Origin: Owenia fusiformis
Lineage: Eukaryota
Length of the DNA: 64,000 nucleotides
Direction: 5' to 3'
Assembly: GCA_903813345.2 (NCBI GenBank)
Contig: CAIIXF020000001.1
Coordinates: 11,966,001-12,030,000 of the forward strand
Shown here: one piece after another, positions 1,940 to 40,630 of the stretch
Position numbering within the stretch: the stretch's first letter is position 1
Layout of the letters: every line of letters begins with the position of its first letter
Made by a program: the position numbers and the translations under genes
The notes under the pieces: model-generated
Databases searched by the model: none
Seen by the model: the letters and a program-made list of their open reading frames with translations, nothing else
Told to the model about the DNA's origin: nothing

Positions 1940-4900
1940 CTATAGTTCATCTAAGTCTAGGGAGTCATCACTGTCAGCCGTATCCACATCACTCAAGTTT
2001 AAATCATCAAGCTCCTCAGAGAAAGCTAAAAAATAATAACATGTTGTTCTAGGATTTTTGGTATGTTGAAGTGAATTACAGTTAAACTTGTATAATTTGT
2101 CAAATTTTTATGTCACCACTTCATGGGTGACATATTGTTATACAGTGTATAACTTGTGTTGTATACATTTTTTCCTAATGTTTAATTCACCAAATATTTC
2201 AAATCTACCTCTATCAAACAACATTTTCTCTAGAAAGAGCCAACATCAATGATTATTTTGGCAAAATCAAGATTTTTGAATTATGATTCGAATACTCGCG
2301 GGATCGCTATACTATGGTAAAAGTGTTATGTCAGAAAAATTTTAATTTGACAGAGGTAACATAACATAACAGAGTAGTGCGATTGTGCCTTATAAAACTC
2401 ACCAGATACTTTTTCTTTTGGCCCATTGTGTTTAGATTTTCTATTCGACCTGAGAGACAAATCTGAGGTATAATCTGCAAGGCTTAGGCTGCTACTTAGA
2501 TCAAGGTCACTACTGTGTATACTGAACATATCTGCTGGTCCCCTGATTTTGGCTTGTGGTTTCTTTTTGTGCCGTTTGGATTTTTCTGCAATATAATCAA
2601 TTAAAATTAGAGCAGGTAACATTATACCAGTATGATTTTGTGATATTTTGTCCACAATGTGATGACAAAAACCTCGTCTTTAATTTACAAATATTGAAAA
2701 AGATAATATGAGGTGCCCCTTGGCCTGATATATAATATGAAAGGTGAAACATATTTTAACAAGGCATTAACATGACAAAATGTCACCACCTAGATGCTCA
2801 CAATATTATTAGTTCAAAGATTTGAATTTCTGAGAACTCTATAGATGATTTTGAAAAAATGGTCAATTTGAAACAAGTTTTTTGACCCTGAGAAGCTCAT
2901 TGAAGATGAAATCTCAAATCTAGGGTCAGATTTGAACTTATGAGAACTTGAAGATGATTTTGAAAAAAAACTAGTCAATTTGAAGCAAGTTGAAAAAATA
3001 CCTTTTTTTGACCTTGAACAGGTCATCAAAGGTCAAATCTTAATTCTAGAGTTAGATTTGAACTTCTGAAAACTTGGAGATGATTTTGAAAAAAATGAAG
3101 TCAGTCGAAACAGTATTTGTCAAGTTATTGGAAGTTGTAAGAAATTGTTACAGACACCGGTCACAACCAGTCAACCGCCATCCGCCGATCACCGTCACAA
3201 AAAATGGAGACCATAACAATATGTCACCACTTTTTGGTAGTGACATAAAATACCCTACAAGTTGTCCAAGAAATAAACTTTTCTTTGGTGGCATCCATCA
3301 TGCATTGTATACCCAAATAAAGTTACAAATACCCGCAACAATATTATTGCTACTTATATCAATGTTCAATTTAATGTTCTTTCTGGCTGCATACTAGTAC
3401 CTGTATTTTGTTTTATTGGCTGGGAATGTGTGAGTTGATTGTTTGTCTCCATGTGTCCTATTCTGTCTCTTAATGCAGCTACAGTCAGGCTGAAAGCAGT
3501 AAAACTTATTATCAATCAACAGTAATATCAAATTCTAAATACAGTAAAACCTGTATCAGTGGAACACCTTAGGCACCTCAAAATAATGTACTTTGAAGGT
3601 GTTCCACTTTATTTACAGAGGTTCGTTTTACATTAAGTTGAAGGGAAACTGGGCTTTGAAGTGTTACACTTATGGAGGGGTTCCACTTAGTGAGGTGTTC
3701 CATAGGTTTTACTTATAATGTTCCCCGACAAATTTTAATTAATACTTAAGAGGATGAGGTAAAAATTTTAGACAAGGCTTTAACATGCAAAATGTCACCA
3801 CCTGCCATATGTTACAGGCACTTTCCACTTAAAAATTGTAGACTATAACAATATGTCACGACTTGTGATGGTGACATAAAAACTAACCGAAGTTCTGTTA
3901 TTTGATGTTTCTCATGATCCCTGTCTTCCTCCTGTCGATTGCTATTCTGCTGCTGTGTCTGGTAGGTGTCTGACAGTTCCCTAAATATCTGAAATAAATG
4001 ACTCAAGAAATAAAATGTCATAAGCTTTCAACTTTTATCACATTTTAAAAACTCAATAAGCAACACTGATTAATATTAATGACACAGACACAATGATGCA
4101 GTGACTCAAAAATGGATTTTATAATTAAGCCCATTTGAAGTAAAATATTGAATATTTGCGGGCCTGTTATGACATTTCTATCAATTCCTATCACATATTT
4201 AATCAGAATATCTTTGATTACCCTTTCGAGTCTGTCATTCCTCCTACTAAGATCTTGGTTGTCTGCCCTTAAAGTGGTCATCTCAAGATCTGTTTTCACT
4301 GTAAACAGAATACAGTAAAACCCTAGATATTCACTCATCTACTACTTGAAAGGATATGTGTTCCCTGTATGGTGTCAGATTTGGTCACACATAATGCAAC
4401 GAGTATATACAGTAAAACCTGTCTAAGTTGAACACCTTTGGTACATCTAAAATGTTCTACTTACCCATTCTAGTTTTAACAGATTCCAATTCCCTACGTA
4501 ATGAGTCATTATCCTCTCTAACAAAGCGCTTCCTGAAAATAGTAACGAAGCCAAAATAGAGCAAGAATTTCCATTCCAATAAGACATTGTAAAACAGACA
4601 AAAATAGCAAAAATTTAGAGATTACGATAAAAAATATATAACAATATATACAATATATAAGTGGTATCAAGGTCATTCATGATGATGATGATGTCAGTTC
4701 TTTAGTGCATATAGGCAAAATATAGGTATCCTGAAATAGTTGTCATTGATTGGTCAGACTGGTTGAAAGTTGGAAGAAGTTGTTGCTTTGAGAAATTACA
4801 ACCTCATACTTAAGCCATCTGCATTTCAAGATCATATAAGAGATCGCTTATCAAAAACGGAACTTCTTTAATATTATCAAGAATTAACCAGGTATAAACC

Positions 4901-7900
4901 CATTCTTACAAATCTTGAATTTCTCTAGTCGCATCAAACATTTGATTGGTGCCTAGGTGTGTGAGGTCATCACTCTTTTTCTGCGCCTGTAGCTGGCTTT
5001 GTACCATATGTAGTTCTGTCATCATATTGCGCTTCCATTGCTCAATCTTACGCTCTGTTTCCAGATCAACACCTTTCTCATATACCCTGTCACTTAGCTT
5101 ATTGAGCTCATCTACAATAATACATATACAATACAAATACAATAGTGCAAATTAGTATCAGATATCATATGATTTTATCAATGAGCCGAGGAAATGATAT
5201 TGAGATATATGAAAAATATGGAAATATGAAATTGGATTTACCTATTAAATTCATGTATGCTATCATTCATATGAGAATGTGTTTAAAGGCAAACTCATAT
5301 TTATGTGTTAAAAGATGTCTCTCAGTAAAAACTGATCACTACCATCTCTTACAGGAAGTACATGTATTAGTATAATCCCCACTTAAGATACCATTAAGTT
5401 AAAAAATAATGGGATACCTTGTATACTTTTGAGCTCCTTTTTGTAAAAGTTCCTCTCTCCTTCCATCTTATCAACTGACCTTCTCAGCTTATCTATCAGC
5501 TAAAAATAAAGAAAATATAATTTGTCTTCATTTGGCAAAATACAGAGTAGTTTGTTTTCATAAATTCCCAAGCATAATTTTCATGTGTACAGTATCTTCA
5601 TGGGCGTAGCCAGGGGGGTAAGATAGGTGTGATCATACACTTTGCTCAACGCCACATAAAAGAAAAAAGCAATTTTGTAAAACTTGTTGAAAGTTTGAAA
5701 TGCTTAGAATGCACCATATACAATGTAAATTTCAAAAAATTTCTGGGGGTGAACCCTCATAACCCCTTTTTGGGGCTCGTTTTACTCGCTGTGATGCAAA
5801 CCCCAAAAATCACACCCCCATGACAATTGCTGGCTAAGTCCCAACTACTTGTATATGACTGAAGCAATTCAGTGGTACATATATAACAAAAGAAGCAATA
5901 CAGTGGTACATATATAACACCAGATTCAGTAAGCCACACTGTCTCTGTCTTTCTGTATATTCTATGATGCAACGGAGAGAGATGCAATGAACATCAAAAT
6001 ACTAATACCACCACCAGCCAACCCAATGAAAGTTTCTCTGCAAAAATACACAGTAAATACCACGAAGTAAAACACTATAGTAAATGAGAAAAGTGTCCCA
6101 GGGGATAAGTTTATTGAAGAGTACTTTATCATATTGTCAGGTAAATCACCAATGAGGTGTTAAACCCTGAAATAAAACATCACGCTAGGATTGTGTTTAG
6201 TTCAAAAGCATCTAAAACAAGAAGAAACAAGGCAATGCAAAATGACACCACCTGCCATGGAATGCCTAACACCAACCACCAAACACAAACTGCCAAACAC
6301 CAACCACCGCTACAAAAATATTTGGAGACTACAACAGTTTGTGGTTGTGAAAAAATGATAAACTGAATAGAGGTATTCTCAATTGTTTTTAACAATATAA
6401 AATATTTCAAAAAATGATTTCAGGAAACAATGAAGAATAACCATCACCAGACTGATATTTTGAGTTAAGGGGAAGTTACATCTCTTACTTTATTTCTAAG
6501 TGATTACACCGACCCTGTGACTGAATACCAAGGACAGATTACCTCCATACACGCAATAAACGCAATTATCTAAAGAGAAGATGTGTGTTCAATGATCAAT
6601 GGGGGAATTATAAGAGAATGGTGTTTCTAGAAATCATTGCAGTAATTTGATACAAGGCATTAACATGCAAAATGTCGCCATTTAACCATTTGTTACAGAT
6701 GCCAACCACCGAATGCTAAACACCAACTGCCTAACACCATCCATAAAAAAGTTGGAGCCTGTAACAACATGTCACTATTTGTGGTGGTGACATATGGATC
6801 TCTTGTACCATTTTCAGATTGGAGGACCTTTCACGGAACATAATTAATGTGACCTGACATAAACTAGCCATCTATTAATCTGATCATGACCCTAGTGTAA
6901 CCATGGCCTTGTAACCTTTGACCTAAGTTTGACCATGACCTTAATGCAGCATTCCATGGCCTTGTAACCTTTGACCTTAGTTTGACCATGACCTTAATGC
7001 ACCATTCAAAGGTTTGCATGCAGGGAGGGTTGGGAATTTGACATGGAGTATTGTCCCAGGAGATAGGATTTTGACATATCACTTCATCTCAGGAGTAGGG
7101 ACTTTTGGAACCTTTGAATGGCATGCAACATTCCAACACTTGAGCAGAGCTTGTTTGTCCCTAGGCTCAACATATAAAATGCAAACCATATCCGTCAATT
7201 AGCATTTGAGTTATCAAAGATTACATTCCTTTTTTTAAGAAAAAATGGCAGCCATTTTGAAATTCTCTTAGCATCATCATACAAAAATTGAGTTATCGCC
7301 CGGACAAACGGATGGAGGGGCGAATTGATGGATGGACAAATGGACGGACAGACGGAAGAATGGATGGCTTTCCTATATTCCCCTCGAACTTTGTTCGGTG
7401 TGATAATAAATAAAATTTGGCAAGATTACACCAAGCAATACATACCCTCTCTTGGTGTTCAATTTTATCATTCAGAAGAGCTACCACTGCTGGAGATTGA
7501 TCTATTTCTATATATGGGGCATCATTTGACATCATCCCAGGTTCAGGATTTGATGAATACGATCGCCCAGATGATGAATAAGCAGGGTAATTACTCTGGG
7601 ATGGCACTGTGCTTTGTCCAGCCTCAAGGTCTCTGAAGCCAACATGTCTCGTCTTAGGGGTGGAGGCCATGAAATCGCGAGAGGAACCAGCTCGTAAATG
7701 GGAAAATTCTGGAGACAAAATTGATATGTTCCATTGTATTTTTTATTAACAAGGTACCCCATTAACAATATTAATATTAATTACTTGATTTATTAATACA
7801 ATTATGACACATTAGTTGATTTAATATAAAGTAATTTTACTAAAAATCAATAATAACAATAACTAAATTGCGATGTTTTTTTGTGAAATTCTGTCAACAT

Positions 7901-10900
7901 TGTTTAATTATTCATACAAAAAATGGCCAGGGAATTGATAACATTTGCCATATATTCATGGAATATTCTGGCTTGCCATTTCCCAATCTTAATGAAAGAA
8001 GGAAACAGACAAAATGACACTTACATGTATATGTTGATTTGTATGAATGAAATTGTTCAAAATTTTGTCAAAAAGATATCTATATTTGGAATCTATATTT
8101 AAAATCAATTTGTTACAAATATTCACCTGGTTTGTGTGATTTAAATAATACTCACCTGGTTTGAGTGATTTAAATAATACTCACCTGGTTTGGGTGATTT
8201 AAATTATACTCACCTGGTTAGTGTGATACAAATAATACTCACCTGGTTTGTGTGATAGAAACAATACTCACCTGGTTTGTGTGATTTAAATAATGCTCAC
8301 CTGGTTTGTGTGATACAAATAATACTCACCTGGTTTGTGTGATACAAATAATACTCACCTGGTTAGTGTGATATAAATAGTACTCACCTGGTTAGTGTGA
8401 TACAAATAATACTCACCTGGTTTGTGTGATATAAATAATGCTCACCTGGTTTGTGTGATACAAATAATACTCACCTGGTTTGTGTGATACAAATAATACT
8501 CACCTGGTTCGTGTGATATAAATAATGCTCACCTGGTTTGTGTGATACAAATAATACTCACCTGGTTTGTGTGATTTAAATAATACTCACCTGGTTTGTG
8601 TGATACAAATAATACTCACCTGGTTTGTGTGATATAAATAATACTCACCTGGTTTGTTTAATACAAATAATACTCACCTAGTTTGTTTAATACAAATAAT
8701 ACTCACCTTGTCTGTGTGATATTAATAAAACTCACCTGGTTTGTGTGATTTAAATAATACTCACCTGCTTTGTTTCATACAAATAATACTCACCTGGTCT
8801 ATGTGATACAAATAATACTCACCTGGTCTGTGTGATACAAATAATACTCACCTGGTTTGTGTGAAACAAATAATACTCACCTGGTTTGTGTGATTTAAAT
8901 AATACTCACCTGCTTTGTTTCATACAAATAATACTCACCTGGTCTGTGTGATACAAATAATACTCACCTTGTTTGTGTGAAACAAATAATACTCACCTGG
9001 TTAGTGTGATATAAATAGTACTCACCTGGTTAGTGTGATACAAATAATACTCACCTGGTTTGTGTGATATAAATAATGCTCACCTGGTTTGTGTGATACA
9101 AATAATACTCACCTGGTTTGTGTGATACAAATAATACTCACCTGGTTAGTGTGATATAAATAATGCTCACCTGGTTTGTGTGATACAAATAATACTCACC
9201 TGGTTTGTGTGATACAAATAATACTCACCTGGTTAGTGTGATATAAATAGTACTCACCTGGTTAGTGTGATACAAATAATACTCACCTGGTTTGTGTGAT
9301 ATAAATAATGCTCACCTGGTTTGTGTGATACAAATAATACTCAACTGGTTTGTGTGATACAAATAATACTCACCTGGTTAGTGTGATATAAATAATGCTC
9401 ACCTGGTTTGTGTGATACAAATAATACTCACCTGGTTTGTGTGATTTAAATAATACTCACCTGGTTTGTGTGATACAAATAATACTCACCTGGTTTGTGT
9501 GATATAAATAATACTCACCTGGTTTGTTTAATACAAATAATACTCACCTAGTTTGTTTAATACAAATAATACTCACCTGGTCTGTGTGATATTAATAAAA
9601 CTCACCTGGTTTGTGTGATTTAAATAATACTCACCTGCTTTGTTTCATACAAATAATACTCACCTGGTCTATGTGATACAAATAATACTCACCTGGTCTG
9701 TGTGATACAAATAATACTCACCTGGTTTGTGTGAAACAAATAATACTCACCTGGTTTGTGTGATTTAAATAATACTCACCTGCTTTGTTTCATACAAATA
9801 ATACTCACCTGGTCTGTGTGATACAAATAATACTCACCTTGTTTGTGTGAAACAAATAATACTCACCTGGTTTGTGTGAAACAAATAATACTCACCTGGT
9901 TTGTGTGATTTAAATAATACTCACATGGTTTGTTTGATACAAATAATACTCACCTGGTATGTGTGATAAAAATAATACTCACATGGTCTGTGTGATATCA
10001 ATAAAACTCACCTGATTTGTGTGAAACAAATAATACTATCCTGGTTTGTTTGATACAAATAATACTCACCTGGATTGTGTGATACAAATAATACTCACCT
10101 GGTTAGTGTGATATAAATAATACTCACCTGGTTTGTGTGATACGAATAAAACTCACCTGGTTTGTGTGATTGCAATAATACTCACCTGGTTTGTGTGAAA
10201 CAAATAGTATTCACATGATTTGTGTGATACAAATAATACTCACTTGGTTTGTTCGATACAAATAATACTTGGCTGGTTTGTTTGGTACAAATGATACTCA
10301 CCTGGTTTGTGCCAATGAATAATACTCAACTGTATTGTGTGATATAAATAATATTCATCTGGTTTGTTAAACAAATCTAGGTGAGTATGGAGAGAGAATT
10401 ACCTGGTATGCGTGAAGATACAAATGTTGACATGGCAATAGCAGAGATACCAATACAATGTACAAATATGGTGTGTGAGAGAGTGGTCTTACCTGTTGGG
10501 TTTAAAGGAGATAAAGCACGTTGTGATGTGGATTTTGCAGACCCAAGATGACTCTAAAAGCATAAATGTTGTTTTTTTAACAATAAACTAAGTGATCAAC
10601 CTGTTTCTATGGTGATTTGGTTAACATTAATCACTATAAAGATGTTTTTTCTCTAAAAGTGATCGTAACCTCATATGAATAAATCATGTAATTTTAATAT
10701 AGGCCTTCTATAGCTGAATAAATGTGAAATGAAATAAACACTATATGGAAATAAACACTTGGGAATTAAAATAAAATATCAATGCCACAAATGAAGCAAC
10801 TGAAATAAAAAAGATGTAAAGCTGTAAGAAAACAGGAAAAATTAGTTGAAATACTATAACAGGAAAAGCGACAATGGGTCTGGTAGAACAATGAATTATT

Positions 10901-13900
10901 TAGTGTATTATTCTGGAGCTGCTCCTTATTTCAATTTCGTACCTATTGTGTTTCGGCATAAAAAACAGTAAATAAACTAACATCATCTTACAGCCATTAT
11001 AGCGAACCCCGAACAGGTGATAAAATATAAACAGCTGGATGAACATTTCATAATCATGACATAACAATTGGATATGGGGAAAAATAAGAGCTTTTTAAAA
11101 TGTAGTTTATTTTTCATTCATGCAAAAGATGCGACAAACAACATATTTCATCGTTTTTAATTTTTTAGCAATAGCCATATATGGAGAGGGTGAGTAAATA
11201 TACATCAAGTTATACTCATATCAATAAATTGAATTGTTTCTTTTATTTCTGAATATTAAAAACATATTTCCATAGCAACAGAATGTTAACAATATTGTTG
11301 TGCCATTATATTTTTAGAAGTTCACTTTTGGTTACTTATTCTGCCTTTATTATTACAGGGTGACCCGAAAAACAGAACTACTCAAAATTATAATGATTGT
11401 AATTAATTTTTCATTCAACATCAATTTTGAGACCTCTTCAAAGAATGGCGTTATTATACTTAAATCAAAGATAAAAATACCATAAAGGTTTACCAAGTCC
11501 ATGTAATTATTAAATAATACTACCAGTATGTATTTCTCATTTCTTTCAGATTGCATTCCCCAATCTGGGCCATACCAACTAAAACTGCCAACTGGATATA
11601 TCAATGTCGCTGATGTGGTTGGAGGTGACATTAAAAATACAATGTTGAAGGTTGGAAAAAAGAACAAGGATCTCTTCATATTTCATCATCACAATGACAA
11701 TACAATCACAATCGAGTCACTCACATATCGTGGCTATAGAATTTCTCATCATCAAAATAAAAACCCATTCTTGAGTAACAAGATCAAAGCACCTTTCAGA
11801 AACAGATTTGAAAGAATTGAAGATAAGGATGAGTTATGTCATGCATATGTACTCAACGATGAAGGAGAAAAATACGCACTTGGACTTCCGAGAAATGCTG
11901 GTGATGATATAGTTTTTATTGATGTATATGACACAGGAACATCTGATGCTCTATACTGCTTCAATGAAATAGGTAAAAAGGTGTTTCTAAAAAATTGAAC
12001 GGCATATTTAAAGGGAACAATTTGTAGCCCTTGAAACATACAACAAAGAATTTATGTATGATGCTATAATACATTGTCAAAATATGTAATATAATTTGCT
12101 GTTCTTTTAGAAGTGAGAGCTCTGGAGTTCTGTCCTGAAGATATGTTTCCATGTGAAATGAATGAAGGTGAGAATTTTAACATTAAGGCGCATGAAGTCA
12201 AATACATTTTCAATATGCTTAATCAGTGACTTTCTAATATTTCTTAATTCATTCTCCAGAAAAAACTTTAAAAAATGTTAAATGTAATATAGAACAAGTA
12301 TTATACTAAAGTTTATAACTGATATGATTTTTATAGACAAATACTGGAGATATCTGCACAAGGGAGCATTGTGCGAGAGTGCAAATATAAATATCTATTA
12401 TCCATGAATGAATAGAAAATATCACAGGCATCAATATCACAGAAAAATGTAACAATCTGTTACAGATAGTAACACTCAGCTTATCACAAAACACAATATA
12501 TCACTATATCTTAGTCATTTTATTCAGCTCTACCCACCTTAATTGCAAGTTTAAAGTTACTATCATGATGAATTGCTTCTTTATGATAATGATGGTAATT
12601 CCTTTTATATAAAAATCCAATTACAATAACTGATGTAATGATGCATTTAAATGCTTCCTTTACACCTATGCATAATGAATTACTATTCAATACATCATCT
12701 GCAGCAAATACATCCTTTCATTTCATATTAGACATCCAGGGGTGGTCTACCAGATCATAAGAAAACCTTTAATGGAGATTTTCACGTCTTAAAGTACCCA
12801 AAGGTCTAAACTGAATGAGGTTTCAGTTCAGCACTTTTCACGCCTGCAGCCAGGATTTCTCAAGTGGGGTTCTATTTTTGCTTTTCCATGGGCACTTGCA
12901 AGCATGTGCAACCTAATTCTAAAAGATGTGCCTGTCATCATGGTCAGAAAGTAGTGTTAATCTATAACTGTCTAAAATTATTTGCGATAACCTATGTGGC
13001 CTTTTGTATTGACAATGTTGCGATATTACTTTTTACGTCAAGTTGATTATTTAAATTTTTGACACAAATCTTATTTACTTTAGATTTAAATTTTAAAAAT
13101 ACACTTCATTATTAAATATTGATTCTAAAAGATACCCGATGCGTCATTGTGAATTTGCAACTTTTCAAAATGAATCAAATTAAATGGCCAATGTTTTTAT
13201 CCTCTGATGTCTAATTTTGCTTTTAGACATCCCACCCTTATAATAAATATGAATAAGACCATTACTAGAGATGTCAATGAAAAAAAAAATCTGAACGGTT
13301 TTGTTCGGAACATTTTGCTTCGGAAATTGTCTATTTGTTAGCGAAAAGCTCTTCAAAACTCTTCAAAGAGAAGGAGTAAAAGGAATAAACCTATTTTGGT
13401 ACAAAATATTGAAAGAAAATGCTGTTTTGTGGAGATTCAAGGGCCAGAAGTTGGGAAAGGGTAAAATGTTCTTATTCCGGAACAGAACCGAAATGCTAAA
13501 AGTTTATCCAGTGAAAATTTCATGAAATATTATTGAGAAGTGAAATTTTTTTCGAAAGAGGAGTATGGCTTGTTCTGTCCCAGCTACTATGAACATAGTA
13601 AATGTGAATGTAATCTAATATAATTAATGAGAAATTTTGGGAATTTTTGACTGTGGGTGCACAGGAACCCCTTGAACCCCAGGTGGCTACAGGCATGCTT
13701 ATATGTGTTACCAGAAGAAAAGGACAAGGGGTCATGCAAATCTATGGATATATCAATCATTAGTCATTGAAACATAAACATTGAAATTATCCCAATATAA
13801 TGAGGGAAGATAATGAATTTTTTCCGAACTTTTACAATTTTTTAAATCAACTGGACCCAGAGTATTTTTTCAATCGACTGGACCTAGAATATTTTCAAAG

Positions 13901-16900
13901 AACAAGAACAACAATGCACTTGCACTCTACATTTCTTTGAGCCAAAATATATTTCATACAAAAGCATTTAGGTCCCCAAAGATCTACATAATCTAATGGT
14001 CAGTCCCTTCTGATCTTTACAGGAAACCATGTATGTAACCGTGTCAAGATCATTACACCAGATAATCCATCTTTAAATGAAAAAGAATTTAGACGCACAT
14101 CAACCATGAGTCACAACCGTCCAGTGTTTGAAGAAACTGGACAAAGTACCACGCCATATATTCTAAAGTATCACAATGGTTCTGAATCTTCTATACATAT
14201 TGATGAGAATAAAGTTGCATATATAAAGTGTTCCTGTGAGAAGAAAATACAAGTAGAAGCTGCATCGTATCAAAAAAAGGGAGATGGAAATTGTACAAAC
14301 GTAAATAGGTATGTGTTGAAGCAATACTGTTAGTGAAATAAGGGTATAAAGGGTAACAAAGATTACAGTTGAGGTGAGAGTTACTGTCCAGACCCATAGC
14401 CAGGATTTACCAAGGGGCGGTTCAATTTTTGAAAAATTTCAGGGGGGGTTCACTTTTGACAAATTTGGCCCAAAAATGGTCAAAACCACTTGAAACGTTC
14501 TAAGAATGGTGAAAAACTGCATGATTTTGAGAGAATTTTACACCGTGGGGGGGTGCTGTCTAAATGATGTTCAATGAAAGTCCCCTTTTTCAATATCACT
14601 GAATTTGGCAATATGACTGAAATCTTCCTCATTTCCATATTTGTTTAGATGTTGATATTTCAAGGACACTATTGGCATACCTTTAAAAATATTGCTTTCA
14701 AAATTTCAAACTCTCTGATCCATTCTTTGCTGTCACAACTTTAAATTGATAACTGATTAAGAAAGGTTCAACAAATATAACTAATAAATATGCCCTCAAA
14801 TCTTTTATGGTTCCAGTTTAACAGTAGAACAGAGGGACCTTGCCTCAAAAACCATAGTGGAAAACCTGTGTAATAATGAATCAAGCTGCAGCATCAAGCC
14901 AAACAATAATGTTTTTGGTGAACCTTGTGAAGGGGTGCACAAACAGCTTGTTGTAAACTATAAATGTCATCCACCAAATGGATTGAGTAAGTTAAAGGTT
15001 GTATAAACTGAAAAAGTGTTTTCACTCAATTTCAAAGCCTAATTACAGCATGTTGTAGTGTATATATATTACTGATTCTTACTTGAAATTGATACTCAGC
15101 TTTATTCCCTATAAATGTGTAAAAAATATTGACAGAGTGGGAGCGGTTACAATGATCCCTAATTTGAGCAATTTTCAGAATGGTTCATCCAGTGTTTTTA
15201 ATCTGTGGTCTGTATACATTTTCTCAAACATAAGCTATATCCTAATTGTAAAAATGTTATGTATTTACTCGTAAGATACTTACTATATTTTCAAATATTT
15301 AAAATATTTACTAACAAAATACTGTGCTGTATGATGCAAATATCTCCATGTAATTTACAATATCAATGGGAGCTAATTAATTATTCCAGGCTGCAGCTTT
15401 AGATGGAGTGTTCTCAACCATATTGAAGAAGAGATTATATTTGCCCCTGCTTATATCAAAACTAGTACAGACATTCTAAGAGGTCAATGGCAGATTCCAA
15501 CAGCTGGTTGTGAAAGTCAAACACAACACAGGCCCAACTACAATGTATATTGTGGTATGTGATTCATTGTTTCATAATCAAGTTTATATATGGCATTTTT
15601 TGGCGTATAATTTAATACACTGTTGGACAAAGTGTTTTATCACCAATTCTAATATGATATGTGACATCACAATAACAAGAACAATTGATTTACTGGTCTA
15701 TATTGGAGTATGTATGACCACTAAAATTCATGAATGCAAATATTTGTTTTTCTTGTCTGTTTATCATATTAGAATCGTAACAAAGACCTCGATTTCATGA
15801 TTATGTCAAATATATGACCTGAAATTTTATTCAGGCTATTAACGATGAACAGAATAAATTTTTTGGTCATATATCACGCCATAAATCATAAAATCTCGGT
15901 CTTTATTCCTTAATTACATGTACAATATAAAATAGTTGTACGCATTCTTGAAACCATGGAATGATGAACTAATACTATGGCATTTACATTCACAGGATAT
16001 TATATCTCTATCTAGCTCACATTGGAGAACTTCTTTCTATTATTGTGACACTATATGTACATGTATTCATTTCTTAACCAGTATTAGGGATGAAATAGGA
16101 CAGAAAAGTTTAATATCAAAACTTAACATTTTCTATATATATTTTTATTTTCTAGTAAATTACACCAAAATCACTAAAGCAACAACACTGGCTCCTACAA
16201 CTTCTGCTGAACTGACCTCTGATACTACACAGCCTTCAACTTCTTCTCTCGCAACTTCTACCAGTTTAGCTGAGACCACGCAAACTCCAACAATTAACGA
16301 CACCCCTGTTTGTACAGTCATATCAAACACAACCCCAGCAGTAATCTTGCATCCTTTAAGTGAATCAAAACATTCAGAAGGAACCGTATATTATGTGAAT
16401 GGGAAAAGGAAATTAGTATTTTCCCCCGTTGAGGCGGAATTTGCTGCTGTTGTTGGCTTCCCCTGGTTAGCGGTTCTTATAGGTTGGGCTGTATTCATTT
16501 TCTTAACAGATATTCGTCATTTTTATATAAGTTTAAAGTATGCATGGCGTAACATCAAACAATTTAGGAAAAACTGTCAGGATGGAAAATACAAAAGGTA
16601 TGTTAACAATAAAGTTGATGTCACACAAGATGAAGTGACCTCACAAGAATTCAAGAAGGAACCAGATGCTGCACCCAATTAAAAAGGATATTTTGCACAA
16701 TTCAAAGGTTTGTGTGGGACCTCCCCCACGCGGGAAGGGGTGAGGATTTTGACAAAATAAAAATTGGACTGTCAAATGCCTTTCCCTGGGAGCAACCGAG
16801 TGAGTGAATCCCCCCCCCCCCCTAGGAGAGCAATAAAAGCTGATTGACGGAATATACAGTTCAAAAGTCGCAACTCCAGGAATGAAGTACTCTATGAATT

Positions 16901-17855
16901 TCCCACCACATGGGGCAAAAATGCATGTTAAATTGCCGACATTTTCTGTAAATACTCCAAACTTCATGTTATGTGTATTCATAACATATCCCATGATATA
17001 TATGAACCACTAATTAAATTATAGAGGTGACTCTCAATATATTTGTTATGGCAAATCTAGTTTGCTAGTTTTCAAGATTAGTGAGTAACCACATGTACTA
17101 TTTATAGTATTTAGACTATATCCTATAGTTCTGGCATTTTTGAAAGATTGGCTGAAACTACCAAAGCATAAGAAGTTTGGTACAGGTACTCATAAAATAT
17201 TTGTTTACAAGAAAAATGTTATTCAAAATGGCCATATCTTTTTTCATATCTGTTACTTATTATATCATTTAATTGTACTTATGTTACTGCCTAAAAGTGC
17301 TGATGAAAAATAATTGAGGAGTCGTATATTTGGCATATTTTCTTGAATTTTAAACATTAAAATAACTCTTCCAAAACTGCTGAAACAAGAAAACTCAAGG
17401 CAAATGCGTGACATAGACTCCCCTCCATAAGTTTGGCAACCTTTTCCCCCCATTGAACTACGTGTTAAAGCCTCTTTACGTTCGTTTTTTTAGACATTTG
17501 TTTTTTTGATGTTCTCCTGAAATGTTTTTGCTTGACAATAATCAGAAAAATGTGTATTTGCATGACATATTCTGTCATGCAGAAAAACTGGTGAGACAAC
17601 AAATGTGTGACAAATACGCAAATTGCGGGACAGTTGGATGGCCTCACTGTATGAGGTGTCTATATGCAAATCTGATTTAGAAGGCACATTCTGTTTAGAT
17701 TAAAAACCTACTGGTTATTTATTATTACCATATTCTATGGCCACTGAGTGTGGCCATACAATATAAATAAGACACTCTTTGTTGTTTTGAATTTGCCTTT
17801 AAATTGCCGAGCTGTCTTATTTTTATTGATGTAAACATAATAAACTCACCTTCAT
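1940..17855 (-). CDS. Coiled-coil protein, about 405 aa, CCDC159-like (tentative); 11 coding exons
   Basis: complement(join(1940..2025,2403..2585,3401..3489,3888..3988,4222..4298,4465..4532,4910..5111,5418..5499,7446..7708,10493..10553,17850..17855)). All junctions are GT-AG and phase-consistent, total 1218 nt. Long heptad region (LLNDKIEHQERLIDKLRRSVDKMEGER...REIQDLKRFVREDNDSLRRELESVKTRM...ITELRLTVAALRDRI) and an acidic Ser-rich tail. The CCDC159 resemblance is from memory, not a search. The 6-nt first coding exon (ATG AAG|GTGAG) is the least certain part. Confidence 0.8.
2759..3250 (+). mobile_element. Non-autonomous Helentron-associated (HINE-like) element, family A, long copy
   Basis: Starts ACAAGGCATTAACATG..AAAATGTCACCACCT and ends in the hairpin ATGTCACCAC..GTAGTGACATAA. 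The same ends recur at 3772-3880, 6227-6330, 6652-6795, 29587-29720 and 35649-35795, with an inverted end at 2109-2140. Confidence 0.65.
3542..3713. mobile_element. MITE with CAGTAAAACCTGT terminal inverted repeats (Tc1/mariner-pogo type)
   Basis: TA-CAGTAAAACCTGT...GGAACACC at the left and GGTGTTCC..AGGTTTTACT at the right. Same family at 44166-44604, with fragments near 4410 and 27690-27748. Confidence 0.6.
3772..3880 (+). mobile_element. Short family A HINE-like element
   Basis: ACAAGGC.TTAACATGCAAAATGTCACCACCTGCCAT ... AACAATATGTCACGACTTGTGATGGTGACATAA. Confidence 0.6.
5599..5842. mobile_element. MITE with GGGCGTAGCCAG / CTGGCTA.G.CCC terminal inverted repeats
   Basis: Imperfect TIRs and G/C-run interior. 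Related elements at 27352-27658 and 58421-58625, with fragments at about 14395-14545, 40680-40770, 42020-42165 and 54010-54190. Confidence 0.55.
6652..6795 (+). mobile_element. Short family A HINE-like element
   Basis: Same 5' motif and 3' GTCAC...GTGACAT hairpin as 2759-3250. Confidence 0.6.
6850..7408 (+). mobile_element. Family B HINE/pearl-like element
   Basis: TGACCTT-rich 53-bp tandem duplication (6901-7007), AAAATGGCAGCCATTTT palindrome, (GGAC/GGAT)n microsatellite and terminal hairpin CCCTCGAACTTTGTTCGG, shared with 39350-40630. Confidence 0.6.
8115..10388. repeat. Minisatellite, about 77 x 29-bp unit (AATACTCACCTGGTTTGTGTGATACAAAT), intronic
   Basis: Contiguous head-to-tail 29-bp units with point variants and no unique spacers. 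An internal 870-bp higher-order duplication and one inverted unit at the right end. Confidence 0.97.
10603..10616. promoter_or_regulatory. RFX X-box-like motif GTTTCTATGGTGAT (others at 10426-10439 and 11266-11279)
   Basis: Match to the GTTNCCATGGNAAC-type consensus; motif match only. Confidence 0.35.
11120..16682 (+). CDS. Type I membrane glycoprotein, about 565 aa: signal peptide, AbfB-like beta-trefoil, SUEL/rhamnose-binding (Gal_Lectin) domain, Thr/Ser mucin stalk, TM helix, cytoplasmic tail; 7 coding exons
   Basis: join(11120..11189,11550..11972,12111..12167,14023..14308,14817..14986,15390..15554,16156..16682). GT-AG, phase-consistent, 1698 nt. Signal peptide MQKMRQTTYFIVFNFLAIAIYG. SUEL signature LCNNESSCSIKPNNNVFGEPCEGVHKQLVVNYKC. 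AbfB-like ITIESLTYRGYRISH. TM AVVGFPWLAVLIGWAVFIFLTD. Confidence 0.85.
15782..15904. repeat. Imperfect palindrome (hairpin MITE) in the last intron of the lectin gene
   Basis: AAAGACCTCGATTTCATGATT..ATATATGACC..AAATTTTATTC pairs with GAATAAATTT..GGTCATATAT..AATCATAAAATCTCGGTCTTT. Confidence 0.55.
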
Positions 17856-17958
17856 TGATCTTTACACGCAGTCCTATTTCATAAATTGGTCTACTTCGCA
17901 GGATATTATTTATTCACAAAAGAATTAAAACAAAACTGAAGGAAATTTTTTACAACAA

Positions 17959-17970
17959 GCGGCCATCTTG
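17959..17970 (-). promoter_or_regulatory. YY1-type initiator motif CAAGATGGCCGC marking the probable TSS region of the coiled-coil gene
   Basis: Near-consensus AAGATGGCGGC about 105 nt upstream of the ATG at 17853-17855, in a locally CpG-richer patch. Confidence 0.5.
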
Positions 17971-18056
17971 ACTAAATCGCTATAGCGGAAAAAAGGCATG
18001 CTTTCAAAATGGAAAACGAGACGACATCTATTTTAAATGAAAATGTTCAATATCTC

Positions 18057-18089
18057 ATCATGGGCTTTCAACTAGTGAAAGCCCATGAT
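18057..18089. repeat. Perfect 14-bp stem hairpin ATCATGGGCTTTCA-ACTAG-TGAAAGCCCATGAT
   Basis: Exact inverted repeat. The arm recurs at about 18407-18419, consistent with a transposon end. Confidence 0.6.
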
Positions 18090-21000
18090 CTCATCAACAA
18101 GATAAGCTGTTACCATTTCAATTCATGAAATATTAACAGAACGATTTTTAGAATATTATATAAATTCATTGAAGGACGGCTTAAGATTTTACAATAGTTC
18201 ACGCCTTCACGGTGTTCCAGATGGAATCACTTCTAGCCAAGAATTGGCTTTAGACTCGAGTAAATTTATTATACTGTAATTCAATGAAGTGTTATAATAA
18301 TTGGTTATTTTTTAAGAATAGTCACTCATGTTGATAATTTTGTGCATAGAATTTCACTGGAAAGGACAATATGTAGGGTTGATGAATGACTTACCGGTCT
18401 GTCGGATCATGGGCTTTCTCTTGATGGTCAGATACAGACCTGAATATAGACTCATAGGCGGAGCCACCTTTCAGTCAGGGGGGTCCATTTACCACAAAAA
18501 TATTGATGTTGCACTCTGGGAGTCAATCCTCCTTGTTGATAAATTGATGATAGATCTAGTCACAAAAATTTGAAAAAAGAAAATAAAAAATTGCAAATTA
18601 AAAGTGTCAAAATCAAGAGAAACTTACCTTCACTCGGGCTAAATTATTTTCTGTATCACGTAAAATCGACGAAAACTGGTTCTCCCAATCCATACTTTCT
18701 TACATACGACAGCATTTGCGTATAAAACGCTATAAATCGATCGTGGCCCCTTCAAAATTTTTGAAATCTTTTTTCCTTTATTTTAGAGAGCTCTGTTTTG
18801 CATTGAACGAAAATAAGGTTAAACATTTTCATTTAACCGGGGATTTCGGTGAGAGCTTTATGGCATTTGCAAACATAAGAGCCTATTCAAGATGGGGCTG
18901 TAAATCCTAATAAGAACATCAGCCTACAATACAATCCCCTCCATTTATCTTGTTCCAACACCATCCTCTTCTTAGTGATAGTCTTGGAACGAGATAACCC
19001 TCCATAAGTTTGGCAACTGGAAGATTTTGGGCTTGTCAAAAGACAAGTCTGCGTTTGGAGAACGAAGTTCATCAGTCTACTGCACGTTACACCTGCTTTA
19101 GACAATTTTGATATTTTTACATATTGTAGATTTAACAGTCCTCTTTTGAATATCCAAAATTTAATTTGGGTGTTATTTATATATTTTTCATAAAAAAATA
19201 TTTGCACAGTAGACTGATGAACCCGCTGATGAACTTTATTCTCCAAATCGAGACTTGTCTTTTATTGAATCAATCTACTGCACTTAACACCTGCTTCGGA
19301 CAATTTTGATATTTTTTACATATTGTAGATGTTTGTCAATGTACTTAAAGAATATGGTGAAATTTTACTGGAAGGGATTAAGGATTAATGCCTAAGACTC
19401 ACTGATTTGTGGTTGGTTTCTTGTCTGCAGCTTAATATTGGAAATAGATCCATGAGGCTGAAGCCACAATTCATTGGGTCAGGTGCATGAATTATTTTCA
19501 CACATAGTTAAATTATTTTAACTGTAAGATTTGAAATTCAACCAGAACCTTTTGCAAGGGTTATTTCCAGGGATCAACATAATATTCAGTTTTTACACAA
19601 GGTCATGTTTCAGTTTTTTTTAGTTTTCTCTTATTAACATGTTTAGTTGTTTGGCTATAGTGCTCTGATTGGCCAGAAAGTGATCCAACTTTGCAGGAAA
19701 ATACCTAACCAAATTAATTGTTTCATCAACAATTATGATACTTGAAAGTAAAGTTTAATGATCATTACAACATATCAAGAGTTATCCAACATACTTGTGT
19801 CTCTCTCATTTGTATCTTTCAATTGTTGCATTACTTGAATGTATGACATTAAAAATTTGAATTGAATAGTTGTGGTTTGCTCTATTGATCAGAATGTTGG
19901 ACTGATGCATCCCTAGCTGTTTCGCATCCTCCTAAACAGGTGTCCAGAATCCATACCGAAGATATTCTGGATTTTGGAGCCCTGCGTACGAATTATGCTA
20001 TTTCGAGATAAGATAATTAAGGATAATTTTGTTAATAAATACTAAAGAAGAGATATTTATAACACACTGTACATACTACTTAAAATACTGTAAAATAATT
20101 AGTTTATTGCATTTCACTTTTCTATATGATAGGCAAATATGCATGCCATCTATATACATACATGTCTAACATAATGTTTGAATGAAATATATTTTCATAA
20201 CAGATTTACATGGATAATGTATAACGTAGAAATCTTGTCTACTTATTTCATAGAAATGTCTAAAATGTTAAAATGCATGCAGTTTCATCGTGATAAGTTT
20301 ATTTAAATGTAAAACTTTAATTTTTTAATATTTCTGTAATACCAGGGTACACTGTACATCAAAATCGAATAATGTAATATCCTTTTTTATAACATGATTA
20401 TGAATACAGACTTTTAAGTCCTAAAATACTCATACAAATGAATCAAAATTTGATTCACTATTCACTGTGATCGATTTTCATGTACCTCTGTACCATACAT
20501 GTATAGTATAGTTGTACACCTTTATTATGCATTATGTAAATGTTTAGTCTATTGTAAATGTAAAAATAAGTGATAAAACTTAAATAAACAAATCTACATA
20601 TGATATGATTCTATAATGTCTTACATTATAATACGTTACTTTGTATATTGATGCAGTTAGTAGAACAGAACAGAACACAAGTTCTTTGTCGGATAAATGA
20701 ACGGTAACATTATAAAAGTTCAAAATAAATGAAACTTCACATATAAATCAATTTTCAATGTTTTATATTGCAAAATAATTATTGGCAAGAATTTTCAAAT
20801 TTTGTTGCCTTGGCAAGATAAACAAGTTTTTCTTTTATTTGGCAATCTACAGGTTTCAATGTATAACATAGCACTTGCATAGTGACAGATTTCACCATTC
20901 TTAAAGTGGTCATTAAAAATGAATTTCAAGTTATCTACAAAGCGCCTTTTTATACATTCTGAACTTTAAAGAACAGATTTCCTGAAACTACTCAAAATTG

Positions 21001-22567: not shown

Positions 22568-36510
<13,943 letters not shown>

Positions 36511-39349: not shown

Positions 39350-40630
39350 AATTAGAGATATCACGGAATAGAAAAAGATTGGAAAGGCTCTGTTCGAAAC
39401 ATTTGGTTTCGGAGAGGAATAATTTCAGGATGGTTCTGTACAGAGTGACTGCCTGTATTAGAACAACGGCAACGCCAAAGCGTAGCGAATCCCATCAAAC
39501 AGAAATGGCTGGCATTTTTACAAACGAAGCGCAAATATCATACAAAAAAAGACACCAGAAAGGCCACCATTTTCAAAATGGTTGCTCACTAGCCAAGTTG
39601 TCATCAGAAGAAATAATATGCTTTTAAGTAGCCACCTCTAAAATTTTTGAAAAATCGCACATGTACTTGTAAAATAACACACATAAAAATGGTGGCCATT
39701 TTGAAAAATGGCCGACTACTCCCCAAAGTTTTATTAGACAATGTGCCATGCTTAAAGTATTCACATATCAAATATGAACAAAATCGCTCCACTACTTTTC
39801 GAGTTATAGTAAAATACGTTAAAATGGCGGCCATTTTTCACAATGGCCACCTTCTACCAAAAGCGTCATTAGAAATAGACAGTGTGCCATGCTTATAGTA
39901 TTCATATACCAAATATGAACAAAATCACTCCACTACTTTTCGAATTATAGTGAAATACGTTAAAATGGCGGCCATTTTTCAAAATTGTTTTCAAAATGGC
40001 CGCCTTATACCAAAAGTGTCATAGGACAGTGTGCCATGCTTAAAGTATTCACATACCAAATATGAACAAAATAGCTCCACTACTTTTCGAGTTATTGTAA
40101 AATACATTAAAATGGCGGCCATTTTTCAAAATGGCTGCCTTCTACCAAAAGTGTCTTTAGACAGTGTGCAATGCTTATAGTATTCACATACCAAATATGA
40201 ACAAAATCGCTCCACTATTTTTTGAGTTACAGCAAAAATCGTAAAATGACGAGTAAAGGCCGCCATTTTTCAAGATGGCTGCCATGTGCTTCTTTAATAT
40301 CTACATTTGTAGCATTATTAATGTCCTTTATAATTTTTTTACATTTAAAACATATTGCTATTGCAGTTTTACATATTGCACCTAAATTTCTGTAAAATCG
40401 TCACTAAATGGCCGCCATTTTGAAATGAGTGGCCATTTTGAAAATCGGCTTTCGAGCAGAACTTCTACCCCCATAGGGTGTATGTGTACAAAATATGAAC
40501 AAAATCGGGCCAACGGTATTTGAGTTATTGCCCGGACGGACGGACGTACGGACGGACAGACGGACGGACGGACGGACGGACGGACGGAGGCATCCCCTAT
40601 ATCCCTCCGAACTTCGTTCGATGGGATAAT
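39350..40630 (+). mobile_element. Family B HINE/pearl-like element with internal tandem core repeats
   Basis: About four 125-150 bp cores (AAAATGGCGGCCATTTT...GACAGTGTGCCATGCTTA.AGTATTCACATACCAAATATGAACAAAATCGCTCCACTACTTTTCGAGTTA), (GGAC)n at 40534-40588 and terminal hairpin ATCCCTCCGAACTTCGTTCGATGGGAT. Confidence 0.8.

What the first reader, a model, noticed from the sequence alone, without database searches (positions are those of the whole stretch)
8115..10388. Intronic array of about 77 repeats, most carrying a near-perfect U1 snRNA-binding 5' splice site
Seen: on the - strand (sense for the host coiled-coil gene) the 29-bp unit reads ...ATCACACAAACCAG|GTGAGTATTATTTGT. The array fills most of the intron between exons 10493-10553 and 7446-7708 and starts about 100 nt after the real donor (CAG|GTAAGA). 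Established: the U1 5' end (AUACUUACCUG) pairs with CAG|GUAAGUAU, so CAG|GUGAGUAU pairs at all 11 positions with one wobble, a better match than the authentic donor. Each unit is also an AG|GT junction, the core of recursive splice sites. Inference: the pre-mRNA carries dozens of decoy donors. It could act as a U1 sponge or telescripting platform, a copy-number-tunable switch to unproductive (NMD) splicing, or a ratchet for stepwise intron removal.
Basis: partly seen in the sequence, partly recalled or inferred. Interest (0 to 1): 0.72.

Follow-up and report, generated by a model that had tools for sequence, protein, structure and literature searches.

The report
Detached splice-donor minisatellite in worm intron
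An intron of a marine worm gene holds 78 tandem copies of a strong splice signal that probably grew out of a duplicated exon end; such repeats are common in this genome and known from human and lancelet genes, and the little RNA evidence here fits use of the first, genuine signal only.

Summary
There are 78 units of 29 bp (8112-10372, - strand), filling 81% of intron 2 of a 425-aa coiled-coil gene. 56 of 78 carry CAG|GTGAGT, and 49 pair with this genome's U1 5' end at all 11 positions, against 8 for the real donor. The functional reading is mostly unsupported. The unit is found only here, but 19 other arrays with unrelated units also repeat a strong donor; 15 of the 19 have a likely coding exon ending at or just before the first unit. 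This is the known exon-boundary minisatellite (human F7, ABCA7; amphioxus 'mirages'), where the most upstream donor wins even against stronger ones. Here the real junction has a 90-nt duplicate (10403) that resembles the unit. The donor core is not significantly more conserved than the rest of the unit. Units lack the T-rich tract of this gene's 10 acceptors, so a recursive ratchet is unlikely. One spliced-looking contig covers exactly 61 nt at exon 2; the exon 2-3 junction was not seen. Unusual points: the array is detached, its donors are stronger than the real one, and donors are broken mainly in exon-proximal units. The scan found this class before, in this and other genomes.

The parts
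8112..10372 (-). 29-bp minisatellite, 78 units, donor CAG|GTGAGTAT in most units
8286..9851 (-). Recent 870-bp (30-unit) internal block duplication: 9851-9156 vs 8981-8286 differ at 4 of 696 bases
   Evidence: also the 99% hit at offset 870
9910..10372 (-). Exon-proximal 16 units, more diverged; 8 of 16 lack AG|GT against 1 of the remaining 62
10374..10388 (+). Inverted partial unit (13 of 15 bases match the unit); in the pre-mRNA it reads like the U1 5' end and can pair with an array donor
10368..10427 (-). Diverged 90-nt duplicate of the real exon 2/intron 2 junction, with an in-frame latent donor CAG|GTAATT at 10403/10402; its upstream side resembles the array unit
10493..10553 (-). Exon 2 (61 nt) ending in the authentic donor CAG|GTAAGA
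7446..7708 (-). Exon 3; acceptor with T-rich tract at 7709
18628..18769 (-). Exon 1 (start codon at 18693); a 1643-nt contig of run X9 matches 18769-18628 and leaves the genome at the donor
1940..5499 (-). Exons 4-11 of the host coiled-coil gene

Best explanation
The array is an exon-boundary ('mirage', F7-type) minisatellite that has come loose from its exon. Step 1 (inferred, with alignment support): the exon 2/intron 2 junction was duplicated 90 nt downstream. Step 2 (inferred): a ~29-nt piece around the duplicated donor began to amplify and drifted to CAG|GTGAGT. Step 3 (shown): it expanded by ordinary block duplication, including a recent 870-bp one. Step 4 (inferred from F7 experiments plus weak RNA evidence): the spliceosome defines the 61-nt exon and uses the first donor, so the whole array leaves with the intron. 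Any read-through to an array donor meets an in-frame stop at 10379 and would probably be degraded. The array persists because it is tolerated, not because it has a job. Donors nearest the exon may have been weakly purged.
For: At least 12 loci with CAGGTGAGT x3 (first 100 of 112 matches) against 1 locus for the reversed control; 8 more loci with CAGGTAAGT x3. Of these 19 other arrays, 8 have a Pfam-matched coding stretch (E<=1e-4) ending at the first donor or, in L031, at a donor 68 nt before the array; 7 more have open frames of 56-150 codons ending there; 4 show no clear exon. The single 9-mer is only 3-fold more common than its control (4876 vs 1607), and 12 vs 1 arrays is compatible with equal birth per site (p=0.13). 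Acceptor-like arrays also exist (18 matches vs 1 control). Real junction vs 10403 site: shuffle p=0.004, window null p=0.0003. 10403 site vs unit: null p=0.0004. No clear core constraint. X9 mean depth in the bin holding exon 2 is 3.03, which equals 15.3 x 61/308; extension to 10403 would give 7.5. P0001 joins exon 2 to exon 3 at the first donor, and orthologs have no 30-aa insert there. Precedents: PMC1557585, PMC3087553.
Against: The real exon end is not itself similar to the unit (null p=0.47; exon side of the two junctions p~0.4), so descent is a two-step inference. CAGGTAAGT x3 gave 76 matches vs 56 for its control (control loci not listed). Across 12 large arrays the donor core ranks somewhat better conserved than average (mean rank 0.34-0.36 vs 0.5), though arrays were picked by that motif. 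The all-unit core test reaches p=0.047. RNA support is one contig of one run whose RNA status is a guess; contigs drop rare forms, and the exon 2-3 junction was not displayed. P0001 is a gene model, not a read.
Confidence: 0.78

Rival explanations
1. Length-dependent side effect (ABCA7-like): the array is neutral in origin, but long alleles divert some transcripts to proximal latent donors (10403, 10301) or alter exon 2/3 inclusion, which lowers expression through NMD.
For: Unit donors beat the real donor by 3 pairs, the largest gap among 19 arrays scored. Donor loss is concentrated near the exon: -1/+1/+2 changes make up 9 of 54 mismatches in the first quarter and 0 of 33 in the last (Fisher p=0.012), as expected if proximal sites had competed. 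ABCA7 VNTR length tracks exon skipping and expression; CBS and 6-16 use proximal pseudo-sites (PMC5954066 passages; PMC1557585 introduction).
Against: The polarity test was post hoc. Within the first 16 units the excess is not significant (9 vs 5.5 expected, p=0.09), and 11 other arrays pooled give p=0.10. No extension of exon 2 is seen in X9. At ABCA7, use of the second donor did not change with length.
Confidence: 0.13
2. Selected U1 platform or sponge: the array is kept to load U1 (telescripting) or to titrate it.
For: 49 full 11-position U1 matches in sense orientation; mild core conservation; the intron has 2 AATAAA and 6 ATTAAA.
Against: The longer intron 1 (8074 nt, 13 AATAAA) has no such site and is evidently transcribed through. 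Without the array, intron 2 would be only about 520 nt. A single locus offers few sites compared with the U1 pool (U1 abundance recalled; 42 U1 gene matches). Predicted donor accessibility in the units is low (about 0.001-0.003, like the real donor's 0.003). The class is explained by origin.
Confidence: 0.05
3. Recursive-splicing ratchet: each AG|GT serves first as acceptor and then as donor.
For: 66 YAG|GT junctions in the array.
Against: The unit has 0 T at -12..-4 against 5-7 in all 10 authentic acceptors. No Y5+N0-4YAGGT site in intron 2, although that human motif also misses 9 of the 10 authentic acceptors, so it is a weak test here. 29-nt spacing leaves little room for a branch point and tract (established knowledge), and the intron is only 2.8 kb.
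Confidence: 0.03

Closest known systems
Human F7 intron 7 37-bp VNTR (Borensztajn et al. 2006, PMC1557585; abstract, introduction and passages read)
   Same: Intronic minisatellite that repeats a 5' splice site behind a real donor; the most upstream site is used even when downstream copies are made stronger (consensus value up to 91).
   Different: In F7 the first unit is the real donor and there are 5-9 identical copies. Here there are 78 copies, 120 nt away from the exon, with a unit that has diverged from the real junction and binds U1 better.
Amphioxus 'mirage' minisatellites (Ebner et al. 2010, PMC3087553, passages read; Canestro et al. 2002 seen only as cited there)
   Same: Locus-specific tandem copies of exon-intron boundaries in a marine invertebrate, at both donor and acceptor sides; edge units are excluded from homogenisation; no interference with normal splicing was reported.
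   Different: Those were described gene by gene. Here 19 further donor arrays were found in one annelid genome, and this one is detached from the exon.
Human ABCA7 intron 18 25-bp VNTR (De Roeck et al. 2018, PMC5954066; passages read)
   Same: Donor-bearing VNTR of similar size (median 2.4 kb in controls) with a second donor that gives a frameshifted transcript.
   Different: It starts at the real donor, and length polymorphism and length-linked exon skipping are shown there; neither was testable here.
Recursive splice sites (PMC10156609, passages read)
   Same: YAG|GT junctions inside an intron.
   Different: Recursive sites need a working 3' splice site before the AG; these units lack the T-rich tract of this gene's acceptors.

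Membership tests
Exon-boundary (mirage/F7-type) minisatellite | Head-to-tail intronic repeat whose unit holds a splice donor in sense orientation | tested here: met
Exon-boundary (mirage/F7-type) minisatellite | First unit spans the authentic exon-intron boundary | tested here: not met
   The array starts 120 nt downstream and the real exon end is not similar to the unit (p=0.47); hence a detached form, as also seen in L031
Exon-boundary (mirage/F7-type) minisatellite | Unit descends from the boundary sequence | tested here: inconclusive
   Two-step link: real junction to 10403 duplicate (p=0.004/0.0003), and duplicate to unit (p=0.0004); no direct link
Exon-boundary (mirage/F7-type) minisatellite | Locus-specific unit, not a dispersed satellite | tested here: met
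   15 of 15 matches lie inside this array, one candidate region; the tool warns that no match does not prove rarity
Exon-boundary (mirage/F7-type) minisatellite | Mature mRNA uses the most upstream donor | tested here: inconclusive
   Depth arithmetic on one contig of X9 gives exactly 61 nt and the gene model agrees; the junction itself was not seen
Exon-boundary (mirage/F7-type) minisatellite | Copy-number instability between alleles | not testable with these tools
   Only the internal 870-bp duplication is shown
Recursive splice site array | Functional 3' splice site (pyrimidine tract, branch point) before each AG|GT | tested here: not met
   0 T at -12..-4 vs 5-7 T in 10 of 10 authentic acceptors
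Recursive splice site array | Lariat or sawtooth evidence in total RNA | not testable with these tools
   Only assembled contigs were available, and none were laid on the array
Selected U1-binding platform | U1-pairing positions more constrained than the rest of the unit | tested here: inconclusive
   p=0.047 (all units, not independent), 0.069 (distinct types), 0.31 (distinct alleles); best-conserved window starts at +4
Selected U1-binding platform | U1 occupancy in vivo | not testable with these tools
   Needs CLIP

The most novel reading that the evidence does not exclude
A detached donor array whose units out-pair the real donor has been tamed at its 5' edge. Donors nearest exon 2 are mutated, and the first intact one can be covered by an inverted piece that mimics the U1 5' end. 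The distal ~60 perfect U1 sites remain and act as a length-tunable modifier of expression or exon 3 inclusion. If so, the many such arrays in this genome would be an overlooked class of splicing VNTRs.
Probability: 0.08. Interest if true: 0.6.

Novelty: new member of a known kind. Interest (0 to 1): 0.25.

Why it matters
Mainly as a natural test case. It shows that about 50 near-perfect U1 sites can sit in a 2.8-kb intron behind a weaker real donor without obviously disturbing the gene, a larger version of the F7 result in an invertebrate. The genome offers 19 more arrays, and acceptor-side ones, for asking how first-donor choice works and whether proximal decoys are purged. It does not by itself point to a new mechanism.

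Tried and rejected
Dispersed satellite or transposon-borne unit: not found, all 15 matches are in this array. Coding or micro-exon use: the 29-nt unit shifts frame and meets TGA within three units, and extension of exon 2 stops at 10379. The in-frame 10403 donor as the ancestral exon end: orthologs lack a 30-aa insert and X9 depth does not fit. Degenerate units between the real donor and 10432: only borderline (p=0.04-0.06). Inverted piece as a silencer: the 131-nt fold is strong (-27.6 kcal/mol, z=-3.7; array windows average -18.2, best -24.0), but masking the piece only moves the predicted accessibility of the 10301 donor from 0.0016 to 0.0032, and none of 18 other arrays has one; unsupported. 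The human recursive motif test is uninformative here, since it fails 9 of 10 real acceptors. No RNA holder is on record. X1, X2 and X3 cover introns continuously and look like DNA or unspliced RNA, so they say nothing about splicing. No reads were laid on the array or on exon 3, so junctions from array units to 7709 remain untested. L033 was left out (ambiguous period), and arrays under 12 units were left out of the pooled tests. One donor (3884) was mis-picked by the script and is not used. Pfam found no convincing family for seven host-gene stretches. Paper searches found no genome-wide survey of such arrays in annelids; the library is partial and no supplements were read.

Full report
Observation. 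The array is real: period 29, 77.6 copies, 8118-10367. Tiling gives 78 units (10372-8112, - strand) of 37 types; 56 carry CAGGTGAGT, 49 CAGGTGAGTAT and 69 AG|GT. A database protein, P0001 (425 aa, labelled Owenia fusiformis by its source), maps exactly onto eleven exons of the - strand, including 10553-10493 and 7708-7446. The array therefore lies in intron 2 (2784 nt) and fills 81% of it. The gene is an uncharacterised coiled-coil gene with relatives in a hemichordate, fishes and an amphibian. The genome's U1 begins ATACTTACCTG. The unit pairs at 11 positions and the real donor at 8.

Not a one-off. The unit itself was found only here. The pattern CAGGTGAGT three times at 10-40 nt spacing gave 112 matches against 12 for the reversed control. 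The 100 listed fall in 12 loci with unrelated units; the control's 12 fall in one. CAGGTAAGT gave 76 matches against 56, in 9 loci, 8 of them new. I fetched all 19 other loci. I sent 25 open frames from 16 of them to Pfam; three loci had no frame of 20 codons. Seven have a domain-coding stretch ending at the first unit's donor (Rieske, BTB, C2, ERAP1_C, Kringle, Il2rg, B56). One (L031, methyltransferase) ends at a donor 68 nt before its array. Seven more have open frames of 56-150 codons ending at the first donor, and four show no clear exon. These arrays are therefore mostly tandem copies of real exon ends. The donor 9-mer is three times as common as its control as a single site (4876 vs 1607), and 12 arrays against 1 does not reject equal birth per site (p=0.13). 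Acceptor-like arrays also occur (18 matches in 11 places vs 1; one place is a donor array; exon adjacency not checked).

Origin of this array. It starts 120 nt after the real donor, and the real exon end does not resemble the unit (p=0.47). However, the real junction aligns with a second junction 90 nt downstream, at 10403 (shuffle p=0.004, window null p=0.0003; the intronic part alone p=0.007). The sequence before that second donor matches the unit at 18 of 20 aligned bases with a 3-nt gap (null p=0.0004). The likely path is junction, then 90-nt duplicate, then 29-nt unit; this is inferred. Later growth was by block duplication: two 696-nt blocks 870 nt apart differ at 4 bases.

Is the donor core under constraint? 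The 9-nt core has 27 of 162 mismatches over all units (expected 50, p=0.047, not independent), 20 of 105 over distinct types (p=0.069) and 13 of 47 distinct alleles (expected 14.6, p=0.31). Without the two hypervariable positions the values are 0.10, 0.15 and 0.40. The best-conserved 9-nt window begins at +4, not -3. Across 12 large arrays the core ranks at 0.34-0.36 on average against 0.5, a mild signal that is expected partly from picking arrays by the motif. Constraint is thus neither shown nor excluded. The clearer pattern runs the other way: 8 of the first 16 units lack AG|GT against 1 of the other 62. Changes at -1/+1/+2 are 9 of 54 mismatches in the first quarter and 0 of 33 in the last (p=0.012, post hoc). 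Eleven other arrays pooled lean the same way without significance (11 of 120 vs 10 of 227, p=0.10).

Ratchet, sponge, NMD switch. The unit has no T at -12..-4 before its AG, whereas all 10 authentic acceptors of the gene have 5-7. A published human recursive motif finds no site, but it also misses 9 of 10 real acceptors and is weak evidence here. For telescripting, the 8-kb intron 1 has more poly(A) hexamers and no such site. Any extension of exon 2 beyond 10403 meets a stop at 10379, so use of an array donor would give a likely NMD target (established knowledge); whether it happens is untested.

RNA. No run is on record as RNA. Four runs were laid on 10375-19600. X1-X3 cover introns and are uninformative. 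In X9 a 1643-nt contig at depth 15.3 matches 18769-18628 and leaves at the exon 1 donor. X9's mean depth in the 308-nt bin holding exon 2 is 3.03, exactly 15.3 x 61/308, while use of the 10403 donor would give 7.5. This fits use of the first donor. It rests on one contig, the piece at exon 2 was not listed, the exon 2-3 junction was not displayed, and contigs drop rare forms.

What is known. Human F7 intron 7 has a VNTR that repeats the donor; only the most upstream site is used, even when downstream copies are strengthened, and CBS, 6-16, LMNB2 and PDGF are cited as similar cases (PMC1557585; abstract, introduction, passages). Amphioxus 'mirages' are the invertebrate precedent, on both boundary types and without effect on normal splicing (PMC3087553, passages). 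ABCA7 shows that such a VNTR can affect splicing by length (PMC5954066, passages). I reached the F7 and mirage reading before opening the scan's notes. Those notes list several more arrays of this class in this genome and in urchin and shark genomes; they are unchecked and not independent support.

What is particular here. The array is detached. Its gap in U1 pairing over the real donor (11 vs 8) is the largest of 19 scored; 14 of the 18 others tie and 4 gain one pair. An inverted partial unit at 10374-10388 can pair with the first intact array donor, but masking it barely changes predicted accessibility and no other array has one. Strictly, the array fails one defining feature of the F7 type (first unit at the boundary), so it is best called a detached member that works like it.

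Verdict. Observation confirmed; mechanism most likely passive (0.78); a length-dependent side effect possible (0.13); selected U1 platform (0.05) or ratchet (0.03) unlikely. New member of a known kind; interest 0.25.

Noticed in passing
window 11507-16770, + strand: A gene with a SUEL (galactoside/rhamnose-binding) lectin domain (14788-15006, Pfam E 1.1e-10) and a likely mucin-like stalk and membrane segment (15936-16682) lies nested antisense in intron 1 of the host gene; the exons may belong to one or more genes.
   Followed up: partly
window 22568-30050, - strand: A Gli/Ci-like zinc-finger gene (C2H2 exons at 26.5-28.3 kb, 670-codon last exon; family name from recalled motifs, ORFs) ends about 3.8 kb upstream of the host gene in the same orientation.
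   Followed up: no
window 10374-10388: Inverted partial unit that reads like the U1 5' end in the pre-mRNA; may be a template-switch product.
   Followed up: yes
L031 (G000:C8:19705500-19710000): A second detached donor array: the real donor of a methyltransferase exon lies 68 nt before the array, and the unit still clearly resembles that junction.
   Followed up: partly
L025, L032, L022, L023: The unit boundaries show short microhomology between exon-internal sequence and the first intron bases, which suggests microhomology-driven birth of these arrays.
   Followed up: no
G000 C1:49005784, C2:26927247, C3:31874049, C7:31439988 and others: Tandem arrays of acceptor-like TTTTTCAGG: 18 matches vs 1 control.
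   Followed up: no
G000:C9:23745153-23771556: Tandem array of U1 snRNA genes at about 750-bp spacing; 34 of the 42 listed matches lie here.
   Followed up: no
window 39686-40248; 14503-14539; 17400-17550; 18503-18535; 19075-19290: A 135-bp x 4 tandem repeat and several short, very high-copy interspersed elements seen as depth spikes.
   Followed up: no
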